A stretch of 64,000 bases of DNA from Perna viridis (Eukaryota), in contig CM074514.1 in the NCBI GenBank assembly GCA_037379345.1, positions 33,852,001 to 33,916,000 on the forward strand. The letters run 5' to 3'. Of the stretch, positions 18,001 to 24,000 are shown piece after piece (position 1 is the first letter of the stretch; each line of letters begins with the position of its first letter). A program made the position numbers.

Positions 18001-21000
18001 TGGATCCATTTGGTCGGAAAAAATCATTTTGAGCATTTTTTTGCGGTGATGGAATAGGCCGTCTGCTTCAAAGACAACAAATTAATGAACAATGTCATAA
18101 GTAAAAATCATGATGTACAGTCTCGTGATAAAATGTTTGTCATCGTATAGAATGATCCATGTTCCATTCCCAGCAGACGACATCTATCATTTTTACAGTG
18201 TATTGTGGGAACAAAAGATTTCCATGGTTTCTTTTGAGATTTCATAATATTTGTTCATCAGACATGCTTGATAGACAAGAGTACCTGTACTTTAATTTAA
18301 GCTTTCATGTTCTTTACTGAAACAGATAGATAGTTACTGAATATTTCAGAAACCTGTTTAATCAAATAATCAGTTGTCAAAAAGATGCATATTTGACCTG
18401 TGTATTGCAGTATCCTGTCTTATCCAATAAAGTTTCTGATCGTTGGAGTAGTTGAGATTGGTTTGACAGAAAAGCCTATATACCACCTCCCCACCCACCA
18501 AAATAAAAGAAAACAAGCAAAAAAAAGGACCCTTCTTGTAAAGCAAATACACTGAAATTCAAAAATATTTACCCTCCCCCCCCACCAGGGACCCTCAAAC
18601 AAAAAAGCCAAAGAACCTGTCTTATAAAGTAACTACAAACGTGCATACTCTCTTTTTCTACTACTTTAACATTAAGTAGAATAAATGGATATAAACTTGA
18701 TCAAAAGAGTGCTTGTCTTAAATCAATGCTTTTACCAACTGTTGTACATTGACATGCCTTAAGATTAACATTTATGACTATTTCTGACATTGACAGTGGG
18801 TCTTTTGATTTTTCTCATTGAACATTGTCCACAAAAATATTTGGCTTTGACTCTGGTCTATTTGGAAAACTCTTAAAATTAATTTTGGAAGTAAATGGAA
18901 AGTTGCTTACAAAATTGGTAAACTACATTTTAGCAGAAAAGGTAAAGATTCAAAACTTATGAGATATCAGTCTGACTACAGGGCAAGCATATAACACAGC
19001 AATGTTATGGAATTCAAAGTGAGTGGCAAGCTCTTGTTAATCGTGGATGGAATCCTGTAGAAAATTAATTAATTTGTTCTGATTTGATTTGTGTTTATTT
19101 TACACAGGTTTTACCACTAAGTTCAGAATATGATTTTGTTTAAACAGGTTTTTTTTAGTGTTCAGTGAAACCTGTCAATACTGAACCAATAATAATACCA
19201 AAACCTGCCTAAACCAGACACTCTTGCAAGTTCCTTTACATAAATTTGAATGTATTTCAGTCTAAATTAATAAAAAAAAATGCAAGGTCTAATTTCAATT
19301 AGACTGAATGTATTTTGAATCTTTGTGAACTGAACACCTGTCTAAACCAAACAAAATTTTAGGGTCCAAAAGGGGTTTGTTTTAGACAGTTTTCATCATA
19401 TATTCCATTAGAAGTGGACTATATTCCACTTTATTCCTGGGTGTTTTATGTTATGAAAAATATATTCAAAATCTTTCAAGCGTTTTAAAACTTTATAATC
19501 ATGATAATGATGTGTTGTTTCATACAACTATAGGATTTCAGAAATCCTTTGTTTACATTTTTTTATACAGTATGGTTAAACTACAATTGTGAAAGCCCAT
19601 GTTTGGTTGCTTATGAATTTGCTAATCTTTGAAATATATGAAAAGATAATTGAATAGTAGTTGAAAATGGGTTGCAGTTTTATCCATCAATATTCCAGAA
19701 TAATTTCCTGAACAAAAAGAGTTTTGTAGATGATTACATCAGAAAAACACATTTACACAGTCCTTTGTTCAGTATATTTAGCACTTAAAAGGTTTAGTTA
19801 CTATTATTTAACATTTTCACTTTAAAACAAGAAAATCCACAGTTGCTCAAACTTTGAAATAAAAAATGAGTCTGTAGAAAAGTTGCTGAAAACTCCAGTA
19901 GTAAATTCTCGTTTTTATCATTTCTTTCCCCTCTGGAATGCTAACTTTCACATATAGATTTTGTGTCTCTTACAAAAATCACTTATACTATCACATACAC
20001 GAAACTGGCACTAAAGATACTTCATCGAAATGCACTATGCTTTTTCTTAAAAAACATTAAAAAAATACTATATCCATCCAACATTAAAATGCTATGCACA
20101 CACAACTATCATAAAATTTAAATATACATGTTTCACATGTGTAAATTCAACACATATCTACAATCTCATCCAGGAACAGAACACGGAGAATTTTTCCCAT
20201 AATCCTTTGCTAGACAACAGAAAAAGACATTGCATTATGGTGCATGTCAATGTTAGGTCTATGATGTACCATCGCTGTGGTAACTGTCTGTTTATGTTGG
20301 AGTGACTGTAGACCCAGTGCTGGGGTCTGTTTGTGTGGATGTTGTGGTGATTGTAATTCTCCAAACGTTGATGGAAATTCTCCCAAGGTGGGATTTGTTG
20401 ACATGTAGGATTTTGATATGCTAGTCAGTAGTGGTGTCATTTGAATTGGTCCGTACTGATTTTGAGATTGATAAGAAACAGGAACCATGGAGTCACTAAA
20501 CTGCCGTGACGGCGGTAAGTGATGCATGGGCATGTTAATAGTGTCCTTAGTTATTGTAGAAATTGGCAGAAAATTTAAGTCTGTCTCTATCTCGTTTATG
20601 TCTAACTCCTTTTGATTGTGTTTAAGTCGTGGATGAGATGCTTTCTTCTTTTGAATTGGATATGAATGTCGACTAGATTGCACACGCTTCATTGGGTCAC
20701 TGTCTTTCAATGATGAATGTGCACATATGTGTTCTTTTTCACTGCATATAGGTTTGAATACTGGAGTATCTTTTTCATTTCCTGTGCTATTTTGAGCACT
20801 ATGGCAATACTGTCCAGATCGAGAACTTCGAAATCCTGAATCTTCTGAATCAGTCGAAGCTTGAGAAATTGGTCTATCACTTTCAAACTTGTACTGAGTC
20901 TCGCTTAAATCAGACATTCCACTATCATGGAATGTATTGTACATTGCTTTTGATTCATTTGAAGGTAAATCAGGACTGGCATCGAAGGCTTCATTGTGTT

Positions 21001-24000
21001 CTGCGTAATCCCCAGAATGAATTGAACTGTTTGCTCTCCAGTATTTCTCTGTTTCTATTAATTTGGCACTATTATAATCATCAGATTTGTTTTTCTTCTT
21101 TGCAAATCTTTTATGAGGGTCATGTTTCTTTGTCATCATTTCTTTGCGAATTTTGTGCTTTCGTAAACAGAATAAAAATATCACAAAAAGGACTAATGTT
21201 ATTACGGCAGGAATGATAATTCCAAGATAGAATAGAAATCGTAACGTCATGCTGCTTGTCATGGTTGGAGCATCACGGGAAAAATGTCTGACTGAATGTC
21301 ATCCATTCTTAAGTTAATACTAAATCTGTCCACTAACACATCGTGTTTGGCTTAAGTCTGAAAATAAAAAAAAATGAAGAAAAAAAGTTGAAAAATGCAA
21401 ACATGAAAAATGATAACATGATTAGGTAAAATATCATGTATTTTTCATAATGATGGATGGTCTAACAGAAATTTATGAAAATTGCTAACAAGAGTTTACC
21501 TTGAATATTTTTCATGTCTGTGTATCTTATTAAGTGCTTTGCTTTGTGTTGAACTAAGAAATATTTTTCAGTGATAGAAGTAAATAAATGGGGACATGTT
21601 TAAAGTTTACAGTGAAAAATTGAGTGTTGATAGTTCATTGTTCATATCTGTGCTTAGGTAATCAGTCATGCTGGTGAAAGGTCATCTAAAGAGCATATGT
21701 CTTTCAGGATAAAAAGTTTTTCAACAGAATGTCAAATGTTTTGGAGGCTAGGCAGAATTATAAATTTACATGATTGATATGGCTATTCATACATGTTGGA
21801 CATGCATATTGTTTGCATATTTAAATTGTCTAAAAGAAAGTTACAAATTTTATTAACTATATCACTATAAGGCTCAGGTTTATCACTTATTTGTTTTGGT
21901 AGAAATATTATTCAGGTTGATTTTCAGAGTAACCATATGATTTGAATGGAATGTAATCAGGGATTATGATTCTCTTTTGAATAATAATTTATTCCATTTT
22001 GTAATCTCCTTTCTTAACTATTGCAGTAGTCAATCTCATTTTTTTTTTAAATACCAGTATTTTATTTGCATCATCTAATCAGATTTATTCTGTCTTGTAA
22101 TTTCTATGATGAACTAAGAGAAAGTCTGAAATGATCGTAAAGCAATAGTCGTTTTTTTTTTTTTTTTTTTTAATTCTACAAATTCTAGTACATGTACTTA
22201 ACTTCCATTACTATGAAGGATTTTTCTTGCCCTGACTTCTTCATAAACAAAATAAAATTGACCAACAAAATGGTCTAGACGCTTAAGGTTTCTTTTTTCA
22301 TAATCTCTAAATGAGTCTGACAGTTCAGAGATTTAAACACAACAAAAGGATATGGTAAGAAAGTGTGGTACAATAGTGATTCGGGTACTCATCACACTAA
22401 TCATGTACTTGAGAAAAATCATGGATGTGGTGAGACGCTGCGATACTAGATCTTCAAATATATAGAAAAGAGATGATGATTGAGGATTGACACAATCATT
22501 GACATGTTGGAAATAAAGCATGAAAGGATTAAGATCCTTGGGTCATGTTTGCTTTTGAATTTTGACGAGGAGTTTATAAGTAAGAATTTGAGAAACTTGG
22601 TCTTCGTTGAAGTAATTCTATTGTGAAAACCATGAATAATTTTCTGCCTTTTTAGGTTTGATTTGGTTATATTAAAATTTAAATTTGTGCACTTTATGGC
22701 TTCGATAAGTGAGTTATGGTCCATAATATTTTTATTATGGAAATGTATGCTACGACTCAATTAAATTTGCGAGAGATTGATGTCAGAGATATCCAGAGGT
22801 CTCACTTTGGAGGCCCTCTCGTTGATACGATATCAGATTATTTGCATATTATTGGAATGTTACTCTTTGGAGGTCTTGGGAATGAAGTTAATCAGATATC
22901 TACCATATTTTCATTGAAAGATGATTATTACATTACAATGTGGAAAAAAAGGGGAATGCATTATCCACTTTATTGGCCAGAAGAGGAAAAAAGCTATTAT
23001 TACAATAATGATAGAGTTTTGTGTACTTAATTTATCTGGATAAATATATTCTTGTCAAAATTTTATCATATTTCTAAGACAACCAACTGTGGTCTAAAAT
23101 GATTATAGTGATACTTTGTTCAGGAAAACTGATTATGTTTTTTCAGAAGTCATTTAACAAAGGGAGATAATTACCTAAAAATCAACATGGGGTTTTTGAA
23201 AGAATCATTTTTTGTATGATTTTAGAGACAAAATCTTTACTTTTTATTTTAAAAAAGTCTTAAAGTTCACTGGGCTATTCATGTTTAATTCAGCAAATCT
23301 TGAAGTTTATGATCTGAAAGTTTTTTTGTTTTTTTTTGTTTTTTTTGTTTTTGTGTAAAAATGAAAACAATTGATGCATGACTTTGTGACCAACTTATTA
23401 AAGGAGCCAATGAAAGCATGAGATCTTAAGCAGGTGAATTAGGTACGAGGGCAATGAAGAGAAAATACACCTATTATTTTTCATATTTTTTAAAAAGCTG
23501 TTTTTCAGCTGTGTAATTTAGACATATATTTTTCATTTAGGCTTGCGTGAGGTTATCAGGTCATCTCTCAAACAGGTGATTTTCAAACAAAGTTGGACAT
23601 TTTTGTAGTCAATTAAATTCTCATTATCAAGTTTCAGTATGTTGTAGATTTGTTCTTTGTAAATTTAATTAAGAAACTATAGAAATGCTTTGTAATTGAA
23701 AAAAGAATACCTTTCCATTGTTCTTGTGTAAGATGACACTTATTTTGAAAATTACGTTTGAAATTGACAAAATTGTCGAGTTAAAATAATTGGATTTAGA
23801 GAAGTACGAAAGATCCTTTAGAAAATTGCCTCATAATTGAATTTCTTAAAAGTTTCTTTGACAATAAATTTTGTAATTGTTTCCTCTATGAACAGCTATC
23901 TGTGAATTTTCAAGTCTCAACATTTTTATTATTTTTTATTTTTGGAAAGGCTGTTCAGGAAACAGAAAACAATATTTGTTGCCTTTCAAACTGTTGCACG

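What the first reader, a model, noticed from the sequence alone, without database searches (positions are those of the whole stretch)
20210..21262. Protein has the layout of a transmembrane signalling adaptor (TRAP-like)
Seen in the translation: no signal peptide, an ~8-residue N-terminus, one TM helix ending in Cys followed by RKHKIRK, and then ~315 low-complexity residues. These contain DSGFRS (canonical beta-TrCP DSGxxS phosphodegron) after the acidic/Ser run SQASTDSE, a second DSGMSDLS, HNEAF (NxxF sorting-type motif), RPIS and RQFS basophilic sites, several Tyr (DDYNS, GDYAE, MYNTF, TQYKF), and a class I PDZ ligand S-V-V at the C-terminus. Established: LAT/PAG-type adaptors share this topology. 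Inference: an invertebrate adaptor or scaffold with phospho-regulated turnover.
Basis: partly seen in the sequence, partly recalled or inferred. Interest (0 to 1): 0.66.

Follow-up and report, generated by a model that had tools for sequence, protein, structure and literature searches.

The report
Mollusc membrane-anchored protein with degron-like motifs
This is a real but unstudied gene, seen so far only in molluscs, for a small membrane-anchored protein whose floppy tail keeps a few short docking motifs that probably tie it to protein-turnover and scaffolding machinery.

Summary
Window 20210..21262 (-) is a 350-codon ORF (362 stop-to-stop; the largest in 100 simulated windows was 179). It encodes 8 N-terminal residues, one hydrophobic helix (9-33, Cys32) and a 317-residue tail that AlphaFold2 leaves unstructured.

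It is a real gene. Relatives were found only in molluscs: 19 of 19 species-named hits, covering bivalves, gastropods and a cephalopod. All are named "uncharacterized" or carry low-complexity misnomers. There is no Pfam family, no solved relative and no paper.

- the TM helix, on one face only
- KKHDPH
- N..Y/F
- Y.T..DSG.S
- RP.SQAS.DS.DSGFRSSRSGQY
- P.FKP
- T.A.VH
- the terminal [YF]SVV

RQFS and 7 of the 11 tyrosines are not conserved.

Best reading (inferred, untested): a type III (N-out, C-in) membrane protein. Stepwise serine phosphorylation at S133/136/139/142 would build a beta-TrCP-type phosphodegron. The SVV end would bind a PDZ protein, with GIPC-type as the closest precedent.

It shares only its layout with LAT/PAG-type adaptors. 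It is not a member of those families and is not tyrosine-based. An adaptor role like that of Vpu, working through the conserved TM face, remains open.

Interest is moderate.

The parts
20210..21262 (-). Complete coding sequence, 350 aa plus TAG stop, apparently in one exon
   Evidence: It is the longest ORF in the window (362 codons stop-to-stop, against a simulated maximum of 179). Relatives reach E=5e-149 to Mytilus galloprovincialis.
21164..21238 (-). Transmembrane helix, residues 9-33. Conserved residues L10 F11 G14 P18 T22 L25 F26 F29 C32 lie on one helical face.
   Evidence: Hydropathy; AF2 helix 4-44 at high pLDDT. 9 of 25 columns are at least 90% conserved in 47 sequences, all within a 160-degree arc; 357 of 100000 random sets were as tight, and 23 of 100000 had as large a helical moment.
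21167..21169 (-). Juxtamembrane Cys32, a candidate S-acylation site
   Evidence: Cys in 45 of 47 aligned relatives. Acylation itself is inferred, not tested.
21113..21163 (-). Basic stop-transfer flank RKHKIRK and the conserved KKHDPH block, residues 34-50
   Evidence: Net charge of the C-side flank is +5, against +2 for the N side counting the free N-terminus. C-minus-N charge is positive in 47 of 47 relatives. K45 D48 P49 H50 are invariant in A1. A [KLPRS][HYF][DA]PH pattern occurs in 66 of 70 proteins.
20984..20998 (-). HNEAF, the N..[YF] block, residues 89-93
   Evidence: N90 in 37/47. Position 93 is Y in 37/47 and F in 7/47, the F group including the window's protein.
20900..20944 (-). 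MYNTFHDSGMSDLSE, the first DSG motif (DSG.S), residues 107-121
   Evidence: Y108 39/47, D113 46/47, S114 45/47, G115 46/47, S117 38/47. DSG.S occurs in 56 of 70 proteins.
20807..20875 (-). RPISQASTDSEDSGFRSSRSGQY, residues 130-152: a basophilic site, a ladder of serines spaced by three, and DSGFRS (141-146 = 20825..20842)
   Evidence: This is the most conserved block: the commonest residue averages 0.85 of sequences and 12 of 23 columns are at least 90% conserved. D141 and S142 are 47/47; G143 and F144 46/47; S146 and S147 45/47. DS.DSGF occurs in 66 of 70 proteins and S..S..S..SG in 58 of 70.
20747..20767 (-). TPVFKPI, the P.[FL]KP block, residues 166-172; partner unknown
   Evidence: P167 is invariant in A1. 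Block mean is 0.71.
20261..20287 (-). TVTTAMVHH, the T.A.VH block, residues 326-334; partner unknown
   Evidence: A330 and H333 are invariant in A1. Block mean is 0.58.
20213..20224 (-). C-terminal FSVV, a class I PDZ-ligand-type end, residues 347-350
   Evidence: S348 45/47, V349 43/47, V350 46/47 (the filter for this set required an S-x-V/A type end). Unfiltered, [YF][SA]VV$ occurs in 55 of 70 proteins including fragments.
21299..21301 (-). In-frame TGA 12 codons upstream of the ATG. It closes the frame between the start codon and any exon joined further upstream.
   Evidence: Read from the sequence; the stop-to-stop ORF begins at 21298.
21358..21395 (-). Pyrimidine-rich tract ending in cag (21358..21360): a possible 3' splice site of a 5'-UTR intron
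   Evidence: Read from the sequence only. No transcript data were available, so this is inference.

Best explanation
The ORF is a genuine gene. It was seen once in each of the 19 species-named molluscs among the hits (bivalves, gastropods, a cephalopod) and was not detected elsewhere.

It encodes a type III single-pass membrane protein: about 8 residues outside, one helix, and a disordered cytoplasmic tail of about 317 residues that works through short linear motifs.

Proposed mechanism (inferred):
1. The helix anchors the protein, probably helped by acylation of Cys32.
2. A basophilic kinase phosphorylates S133 in RP.S.
3. A CK1-type kinase then walks along S136, S139 and S142, which are spaced by three. 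Together with S146/S147 this completes a doubly phosphorylated D-pS-G-F-R-pS site.
4. That site is bound by the WD40 propeller of beta-TrCP/Slimb, so SCF ubiquitylates the protein and sets its abundance. The upstream DSG.S may act as a second, weaker site.
5. The invariant [YF]SVV carboxyl end docks a PDZ protein. The closest precedent for SVV is GIPC. This places the protein at a particular membrane or endosomal scaffold.

Shown here: gene reality, topology signals, disorder and motif conservation. Not shown: any phosphorylation, any binding, any turnover.
For: Gene reality:
- The ORF far exceeds chance.
- 51 relatives were found with one sequence, 58 with a profile, and 30 in a full scan of 1.84 billion representatives.

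Topology:
- There is one hydrophobic segment in 47 of 47 relatives, and the C-side flank is more positive than the N-side in 47 of 47. By the positive-inside rule (established knowledge) this puts the tail in the cytoplasm.
- The median N-terminus is 8 residues.

Disorder:
- AF2 pLDDT is below 50 for 249 of 350 residues.
- Charge-hydropathy places the tail on the disordered side, 0.385 against a boundary of 0.418.
- The distance between the two DSG motifs varies from 26 to 390 residues among relatives, as expected for independent linear motifs rather than a fold.

Motifs:
- Block 130-152 has a mean conservation of 0.85, against 0.25 for residues 173-325.
- DSG.{2,3}[ST] occurs in 66 of 70 proteins and S..S..S..SG in 58 of 70.

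Precedents read in papers (passages only):
- DSGXXS is the canonical SCF-beta-TrCP motif and needs two phosphoserines (PMC9662817).
- LATS phosphorylation of YAP is followed by CK1 phosphorylation at Ser384 and Ser387 (PMC12273402). That these two serines form the beta-TrCP degron is my recollection, not in the passage seen.
- A bivalve has a beta-TrCP with the mammalian F-box/WD40 domain layout, and DSGIS in Nrf2 is a beta-TrCP site (PMC13080398).
- SVV is the GIPC-binding end of LPA1, SemF and GP75, and the GIPC PDZ domain prefers it to STL, STF and SAL (PMC3493537).
Against: - No experiment or structure supports any binding step.
- The first motif, DSGMSD, does not fit D-S-G-x(2,3)-[ST].
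- S146 is not at a CK1 spacing from S142, so a second kinase must be assumed.
- The RP.S site lacks the His at -5 of LATS sites, so the priming kinase is unknown.
- Three other conserved blocks (KKHDPH, P.FKP, T.A.VH) and the one-sided conservation of the TM helix are not explained by a simple 'substrate with a PDZ end' model. They suggest further partners.
- The polyproline stretch present in 60 of 70 proteins is missing from the window's protein, so part of the family's function may differ in this lineage.
- Many PDZ domains accept S-x-V, so GIPC is only the nearest precedent.
Confidence: 0.45

Rival explanations
1. It is an adaptor or auxiliary subunit rather than a substrate. The conserved face of the TM helix binds another membrane protein (a receptor, channel or transporter). 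The tail then brings SCF-beta-TrCP and/or a PDZ scaffold to that partner, in the way HIV-1 Vpu connects CD4 to beta-TrCP.
For: The nine TM residues conserved at 90% or more lie within a 160-degree arc, with G14, P18 and T22 at i, i+4, i+8. Only 357 of 100000 random sets were as tight, and 23 of 100000 had as large a moment. The TM block is much better conserved than most of the tail (0.69 against 0.25), which a mere anchor does not need. Vpu is described as an adaptor that binds CD4 in the membrane and recruits SCF-beta-TrCP through its cytosolic tail (PMC9662817, passages). Vpu has the same short-N-terminus, one-helix, DSGxxS layout (recalled).
Against: No partner is known. One-sided TM conservation could also reflect self-association or lipid contacts. 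Many cellular beta-TrCP clients with such motifs are simply substrates. The tail is far longer than that of Vpu.
Confidence: 0.25
2. The serine-rich block is a phosphorylation-dependent switch for a reader other than beta-TrCP, for example a kinase docking site, a 14-3-3-type binder or a phosphatase. The protein would be a stable scaffold whose signalling state, not its abundance, is regulated.
For: Conservation extends well beyond the six-residue degron, from RP.SQAS to SSRSGQY.HSA, which is more than beta-TrCP contacts need. The invariant R145, S147 and S149 are not required by the DSGxxS consensus.
Against: D-S-G-hydrophobic-x-S is kept in 66 of 70 proteins as DSG.{2,3}[ST], and D141 and S142 in 47 of 47. 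G143 at 46 of 47 is hard to explain without a reader that needs Gly, as beta-TrCP does (recalled from the beta-catenin complex structure).
Confidence: 0.2
3. It is a tyrosine-phosphorylation-based transmembrane adaptor of the LAT/PAG/LIME kind, recruiting SH2 proteins.
For: It has the same layout and a juxtamembrane Cys. A language-model feature search listed a LIME1 cluster among look-alikes at 0.86, under the 0.9 lead threshold. Three aromatic positions are conserved.
Against: 7 of the 11 tyrosines match the window's residue in only 4-12 of 47 relatives. The window itself has F, not Y, at the best-conserved site. No YxN or other classic SH2 motif is conserved. There is no CxxC. No LAT, PAG or LIME1 Pfam match appeared for 19 members; SCIMP matched 1 of 19 at E=0.16.
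Confidence: 0.05
4. It has the opposite topology or is secreted. The hydrophobic segment would be a signal anchor or signal peptide, the tail would be extracellular, and the acidic Ser-Gly sites would be glycosaminoglycan attachment sites or secretory-kinase sites.
For: Acidic residues flanking Ser-Gly (DSEDSG, HDSG) resemble proteoglycan attachment sites (recalled consensus). S-x-[ED] sites are present.
Against: The charge bias points the other way in 47 of 47 relatives. The hydrophobic stretch is 25-32 residues long, too long for a cleaved signal peptide. No conserved cysteine pairs or conserved sequons appear in the tail. An invariant free-carboxyl S-V-V has no known extracellular role.
Confidence: 0.03

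Closest known systems
Vertebrate transmembrane adaptor proteins (LAT, PAG/Cbp, NTAL, LIME, SCIMP)
   Same: Very short extracellular N-terminus, no signal peptide, one TM helix, a membrane-proximal Cys, and a long disordered cytoplasmic tail acting through short motifs.
   Different: No sequence relationship. One Cys rather than CxxC. The conserved motifs are serine-based (DSG, S..S ladder) plus a PDZ end, not a set of conserved tyrosines. The comparison is one of layout only.
HIV-1 Vpu
   Same: Short N-terminus, one TM helix with a partner-binding face, and a cytoplasmic DSGxxS that recruits SCF-beta-TrCP after serine phosphorylation (PMC9662817 passages; the layout is recalled).
   Different: Vpu is viral, has about 80 residues, has two structured cytoplasmic helices and no PDZ ligand. 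There is no sequence relationship and no evidence here of a degraded partner.
Cellular beta-TrCP clients with primed serine ladders (YAP/TAZ, beta-catenin, Nrf2 Neh6)
   Same: A priming site followed by evenly spaced serines leading into D-S-G-hydrophobic-x-S. A second DSG.S recalls Nrf2 DSGIS (PMC12273402; PMC13080398).
   Different: Those are soluble proteins with folded domains. This one is membrane-anchored and has no folded domain. The priming kinase consensus differs (no His at -5).
Membrane proteins ending in SVV that bind the PDZ protein GIPC (LPA1, SemF, GP75/TYRP1)
   Same: An identical three-residue carboxyl end on a cytoplasmic tail of a membrane protein (PMC3493537, abstract and passages).
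   Different: Those are a GPCR, a semaphorin and a melanosomal enzyme with large extracellular parts. Only the last three residues are shared, and binding was not tested here.
Pfam FAM176 (EVA1) and EVC2_like
   Same: Weak matches over the TM and the basic juxtamembrane stretch (residues 9-71).
   Different: 16.4 and 11.8 bits against curated cut-offs of 31.5 and 25. Each is matched by only 2 of 19 family members. These are hydrophobic-segment noise, not membership.

Membership tests
LAT/PAG-type transmembrane adaptor proteins (TRAPs) | Short extracellular part, single TM, no signal peptide | tested here: met
   8 residues before the hydrophobic stretch. There is one hydrophobic segment in 47 of 47 relatives, and the N-terminus is at most 11 residues in 44 of 47.
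LAT/PAG-type transmembrane adaptor proteins (TRAPs) | Juxtamembrane CxxC palmitoylation motif (feature recalled) | tested here: not met
   A single Cys32 (45 of 47 relatives) with no second Cys nearby. Acylation of the single Cys is not testable here.
LAT/PAG-type transmembrane adaptor proteins (TRAPs) | Several conserved tyrosine motifs that recruit SH2 proteins | tested here: not met
   Of 11 Tyr, only Y108 (39/47) and Y152 (35/47) are well kept, with Y63 at 26/47. The N..Y site is F in the window. Seven Tyr are kept in 4-12 of 47.
LAT/PAG-type transmembrane adaptor proteins (TRAPs) | Sequence match to a family model (LAT, PAG, LIME1, SCIMP in Pfam) | tested here: not met
   None at E up to 10 for the window's protein. 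Among 19 relatives only SCIMP matched, 1 of 19 at E=0.16.
SCF-beta-TrCP phosphodegron carriers | D-S-G-x(2,3)-[ST] motif (regular expression recalled from ELM) | tested here: met
   DSGFRS at 141-146.
SCF-beta-TrCP phosphodegron carriers | Motif lies in an accessible, disordered, cytoplasmic region | tested here: met
   pLDDT is about 50 or less around the motif (ten-residue block means 49 and 50). The cytoplasmic side is inferred from the charge bias in 47 of 47 relatives. This is prediction, not measurement.
SCF-beta-TrCP phosphodegron carriers | Both serines phosphorylated; binding to the beta-TrCP WD40 domain; degradation dependent on them | not testable with these tools
   No mollusc beta-TrCP sequence was on hand, and the complex predictor does not model phosphoserines.
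Class I PDZ ligands | Free carboxyl end [ST]-x-hydrophobic | tested here: met
   S-V-V followed by a stop. S[VIAF][VA]$ occurs in 59 of 70 proteins and [YF][SA]VV$ in 55 of 70. Only 666 of 20000 shuffled tails end this way.
Class I PDZ ligands | Binding to a PDZ domain (GIPC or other) | not testable with these tools
   There is only the literature precedent for SVV-GIPC (PMC3493537).
Pfam FAM176 / EVA1 | Score at or above the curated cut-off | tested here: not met
   16.4 bits against 31.5.

The most novel reading that the evidence does not exclude
The protein is an endogenous counterpart of Vpu, restricted to one phylum. It would be a small membrane adaptor whose conserved TM face captures a specific membrane partner, and whose tail delivers that partner to SCF-beta-TrCP under kinase control and to a GIPC-type endocytic scaffold. 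That would make it a programmable degradation and trafficking adaptor for membrane proteins invented in molluscs.
Probability: 0.15. Interest if true: 0.75.

Novelty: new variant of a known kind. Interest (0 to 1): 0.45.

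Why it matters
Lineage-restricted, fully disordered proteins are usually dismissed as annotation noise. This one keeps about 75 of its 350 positions (commonest residue in at least 70% of 47 sequences) across bivalves, gastropods and a cephalopod, so it must do something specific.

Its conserved parts make direct, cheap predictions:
- which four to six serines to mutate
- which three terminal residues to delete
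- which helix face to disrupt

If the degron reading holds, it would be a clean invertebrate example of kinase-gated SCF-beta-TrCP control at a membrane. It would also be a handle on PDZ/GIPC trafficking in molluscs, where such pathways are barely studied. If it does not hold, the near-invariant block (residues 130-152) marks an unknown phospho-reader.

Tried and rejected
- **Pfam, window protein.** Only sub-threshold hits over the hydrophobic segment.
- **Pfam, 19 relatives.** 21 families at E up to 1, and none matched by more than 3 of 19.
- **Solved structures.** The profile search against PDB sequences gave one hit at E=0.71 (Fap1), which is noise.
- **ESM Atlas, whole protein.** Look-alikes at 0.85-0.90, below the recognition mark: Semaphorin 6A fragment, poxvirus A36R, HCMV UL135, LIME1, opalin, C1orf185, TMIE. 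All are single-pass proteins with a disordered tail, so I treat this as a likeness of layout only.
- **ESM Atlas, residues 100-180, named clusters only.** No usable hit.
- **Region-restricted search, residues 100-180.** 15 proteins from 16 candidates, all already known family members.
- **Self-association of residues 1-56, two copies.** The predictor returned no verdict: score 0.02 against a mark of 0.32, controls not run, and my alignment was not used. This says nothing either way.
- **Other coding sequence in the window.** 27 of the other long ORFs gave no Pfam family apart from one sub-threshold PerB hit. No tRNA and no Rfam family.
- **Retrogene or transposon origin.** No flanking repeats around the ORF, and each of the 19 named species appears once among the hits. 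I rejected a mobile-element origin.
- **Papers.** No paper holds the motif strings or six of the locus names. A search for 'transmembrane adaptor proteins' plus 'invertebrate' listed 6 papers, none relevant by title or abstract; I read passages of one, PMC3492796.
- **Not used.** The genome-contig collection holds only bacteria and archaea, so it could not help.

Full report
**1. The observation**

On the minus strand, ATG 21262 to TAG 20210 is a 350-codon ORF. Stop-to-stop it is 362 codons, the longest in the 64-kb window; the next is 157. In 100 Markov-1 simulations of the window, the longest ORF averaged 133 codons and never exceeded 179. The window has no N and 31.7% G+C; the ORF has 37.6%.

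The only slip is that the hydrophobic stretch ends C32-L33, not in Cys.

Twelve codons upstream of the ATG there is an in-frame TGA (21299..21301). A pyrimidine tract ending in cag lies at 21358..21395. The simplest gene model is therefore a 5'-UTR intron followed by one exon holding the whole CDS. I had no transcript data to confirm this. Because the CDS is one exon, no spliced model had to be joined.

**2. Physical layout**

- Only windows starting at residues 3-20 exceed Kyte-Doolittle 1.6. The best window elsewhere scores 0.35.
- The N-side flank carries +2 (counting the free N-terminus) and the C-side flank +5.
- AlphaFold2 with a 20-sequence alignment gives one helix, residues 4-44, with ten-residue block means of 93-98 over residues 11-40. 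249 of 350 residues are below pLDDT 50.
- The 317-residue tail is 13.9% Ser, 8.8% Lys, 6.9% Pro and 6.6% His. It falls on the disordered side of the charge-hydropathy boundary, 0.385 against 0.418.

**3. It is a real, conserved gene seen only in molluscs**

- A single-sequence search found 51 relatives among 688 candidates. The closest were an unnamed record at 87% identity and Mytilus galloprovincialis at 72%, so the window is from a mytilid-like bivalve other than Mytilus (inference).
- A full HMMER scan of 1.84 billion representatives found 30 proteins at E up to 0.001.
- A 19-sequence profile found 58 among 4417 candidates.
- Of those 58, 19 carry a species name and all 19 are molluscs, one protein per species:
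  - Bivalves: Mytilus, Mizuhopecten, Pinctada, Mactra, Mercenaria, Mya, Dreissena.
  - Gastropods: Haliotis, Lottia, Patella, Gigantopelta, Pomacea, Nucella, Babylonia, Biomphalaria, Bulinus, Lymnaea, Physella.
  - Cephalopod: Argonauta.
- The other 39 are unnamed, one being the window's own protein.
- Names are 'uncharacterized', 'hypothetical' or low-complexity misnomers such as 'GATA zinc finger domain-containing protein 3-like' and 'myb-like protein I'.
- No Pfam model reaches its cut-off and there is no solved relative.
- No paper holds the motif strings or six of the locus names. Supplements, where expression tables might list these loci, were closed.
- 'Mollusc-only' is limited by the tools. 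I could not run a profile-profile search, nor search eukaryotic genome DNA.

**4. Where conservation lies**

In a 20-sequence alignment, 36 columns are invariant: L10 F11 G14 P18 T22 L25 F26 F29, R39 K45 D48 P49 H50, D113 S114 G115 S117, R130 P131 S133 S136 D138 S139 D141 S142 G143 F144 R145 S146 S147 S149, P167, A330 H333, V349 V350.

| Pattern | Proteins |
|---|---|
| DSGF.[SG][SC] | 67/70 |
| DS.DSGF | 66/70 |
| DSG.{2,3}[ST] | 66/70 |
| DPH-type block | 66/70 |
| RP.S | 65/70 |
| polyproline | 60/70 |
| S..S..S..SG | 58/70 |
| DSG.S | 56/70 |
| [YF][SA]VV at the end | 55/70 |

I kept 47 of the 70 as full length and dropped 23. The filter required the TM core, DS.DSGF and an S-x-V/A type end, so counts for those three features in this set are biased upward. 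The mean share of the commonest residue in each block was:

| Block | Mean share |
|---|---|
| residues 130-152 | 0.85 |
| last four residues | 0.84 |
| P.FKP | 0.71 |
| TM | 0.69 |
| residues 34-50 | 0.65 |
| residues 107-121 | 0.62 |
| T.A.VH | 0.58 |
| N..Y block | 0.54 |
| residues 173-325 | 0.25 (37% gaps) |

- **Conserved:** Cys32 (45/47), DSGFRS, DSG.S, RPIS (45, 44 and 45 of 47 for R, P and S), and the N..aromatic site (N 37/47; Y 37/47 plus F 7/47).
- **Conserved tyrosines:** Y108 (39/47) and Y152 (35/47), with Y63 at 26/47.
- **Not conserved:** Y74, Y86, Y124, Y201, Y264, Y270 and Y286 (4-12 of 47), and RQFS, which sits in a mytilid-only insertion (3/47 and 5/47).

The window's protein lacks the polyproline run that follows KKHDPH in most relatives.

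**5. Topology across the family**

All 47 have one hydrophobic segment, and all 47 have a more positive C-side flank (median difference +3). The median N-terminus is 8 residues. Three are longer (16, 42 and 76 residues). These extensions are low-complexity, and in two of the three (42 and 76 residues) a Met lies within a few residues of the conserved start, so an upstream-ATG annotation artefact is likely. By the positive-inside rule the tail is cytoplasmic.

**6.

1. The nine TM residues conserved at 90% or more lie within a 160-degree arc of the helix, with G14, P18 and T22 at i, i+4, i+8. Only 357 of 100000 random sets of nine positions were as tight, and 23 of 100000 had as large a helical moment. 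A plain anchor does not need this, so it points to a specific contact in the membrane.
2. S133, S136, S139 and S142 are spaced by exactly three and begin with R at -3 (RP.S). This is the pattern of a primed CK1-type ladder running into D-S142-G-F-R-S146. In YAP, phosphorylation by LATS is followed by CK1 phosphorylation at Ser384 and Ser387 (PMC12273402, passage). That this builds the beta-TrCP degron is my recollection.

**7. Mechanism proposed**

The following is inference:
- The helix, and probably acyl-Cys32, hold the protein in a membrane.
- A basophilic kinase primes S133.
- A CK1-type kinase completes the ladder.
- The doubly phosphorylated DSGFRS is read by beta-TrCP/Slimb, and the SCF ligase sets the protein's level.
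- The upstream DSG.S may be a second site, as DSGIS is in Nrf2.
- The [YF]SVV end binds a PDZ protein.

Supporting literature (abstract and passages only, not whole texts):
- DSGXXS needs two phosphoserines, and Vpu is a membrane adaptor for SCF-beta-TrCP (PMC9662817).
- A bivalve beta-TrCP has the mammalian F-box/WD40 domain layout (PMC13080398).
- SVV is the GIPC-binding end of LPA1, SemF and GP75, and the GIPC PDZ domain prefers it to STL, STF and SAL (PMC3493537).

Evidence against or left open:
- DSGMSD does not fit the strict expression.
- S146 is off the three-residue register.
- The priming kinase is unknown.
- KKHDPH, P.FKP and T.A.VH have no assigned reader.
- No binding was tested.

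**8. Rivals**

- **Adaptor like Vpu, working through the TM face (0.25).** This is also the most novel reading.
- **A phospho-switch read by something other than beta-TrCP (0.2).**
- **A true tyrosine-based TRAP (0.05).** This is contradicted by the poor conservation of tyrosines and the lack of any family match.
- **Inverted topology with glycosaminoglycan-type Ser-Gly sites (0.03).** This is contradicted by the charge bias in 47 of 47 relatives and by the invariant free carboxyl end.

**9. Comparison and novelty**

It is laid out like a TRAP but is not a member of any TRAP family. It carries the sequence hallmarks of beta-TrCP clients and of class I PDZ ligands. Membership of those functional classes depends on binding, which I could not test.

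I file it as a new variant of a known kind: a membrane adaptor or scaffold built of short linear motifs. It belongs to an undescribed family seen only in molluscs. Interest is 0.45. It is solid and testable, but its function is inferred from motifs alone.

**10. Surroundings**

Nothing else in the window looks coding. 27 other long ORFs have no Pfam family, and there are no tRNA or Rfam matches. The window also holds satellites and a dispersed repeat.

Noticed in passing
window 21259..21306 (-): A 15-codon upstream ORF (ATG 21306) ends in a TGA that overlaps the main ATG (ATGA arrangement). If it lies in the 5' UTR, it could impose termination-reinitiation control on translation.
   Followed up: no
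window 48870..49606, 49782..50267: A 31-nt satellite of about 24 copies (80% matches), followed by 28/109-nt and 48/56-nt tandem arrays. This region also has the strongest GC skew of the window (0.229 in 48001-50000).
   Followed up: partly
window 42957..43307 (-) and 62021..62329 (-): Two ORF-like stretches share 57% identity over 86 residues (E=1e-20). They are probably copies of a dispersed repeat. Neither has a Pfam family.
   Followed up: partly
window 38754..40080: Three copies of a 147-nt direct repeat (63-100% identity), spaced by 870 and 310 nt.
   Followed up: no
window 20758..21216 (+): A 152-codon open frame lies antisense to the gene. It is the third-longest ORF in the window and is most simply a by-product of the coding strand's composition.
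   Followed up: no
relatives P0056, P0057, P0059, P0060, P0066, P0069 (freshwater and other heterobranch snails among the named ones): These relatives carry an extra DSG[FI]S motif and 237-390 residues of Q/H/P-rich insertion between the first DSG and the DSGF block, while the flanking motifs stay intact.
   Followed up: partly
P0001 against most relatives, residues 51-75: The window's protein and its closest relatives (P0003-P0005) lack the polyproline run that follows KKHDPH in 60 of 70 proteins. Three of them have a PPPP run further downstream (about residue 250), where the window has only PP.
   Followed up: partly
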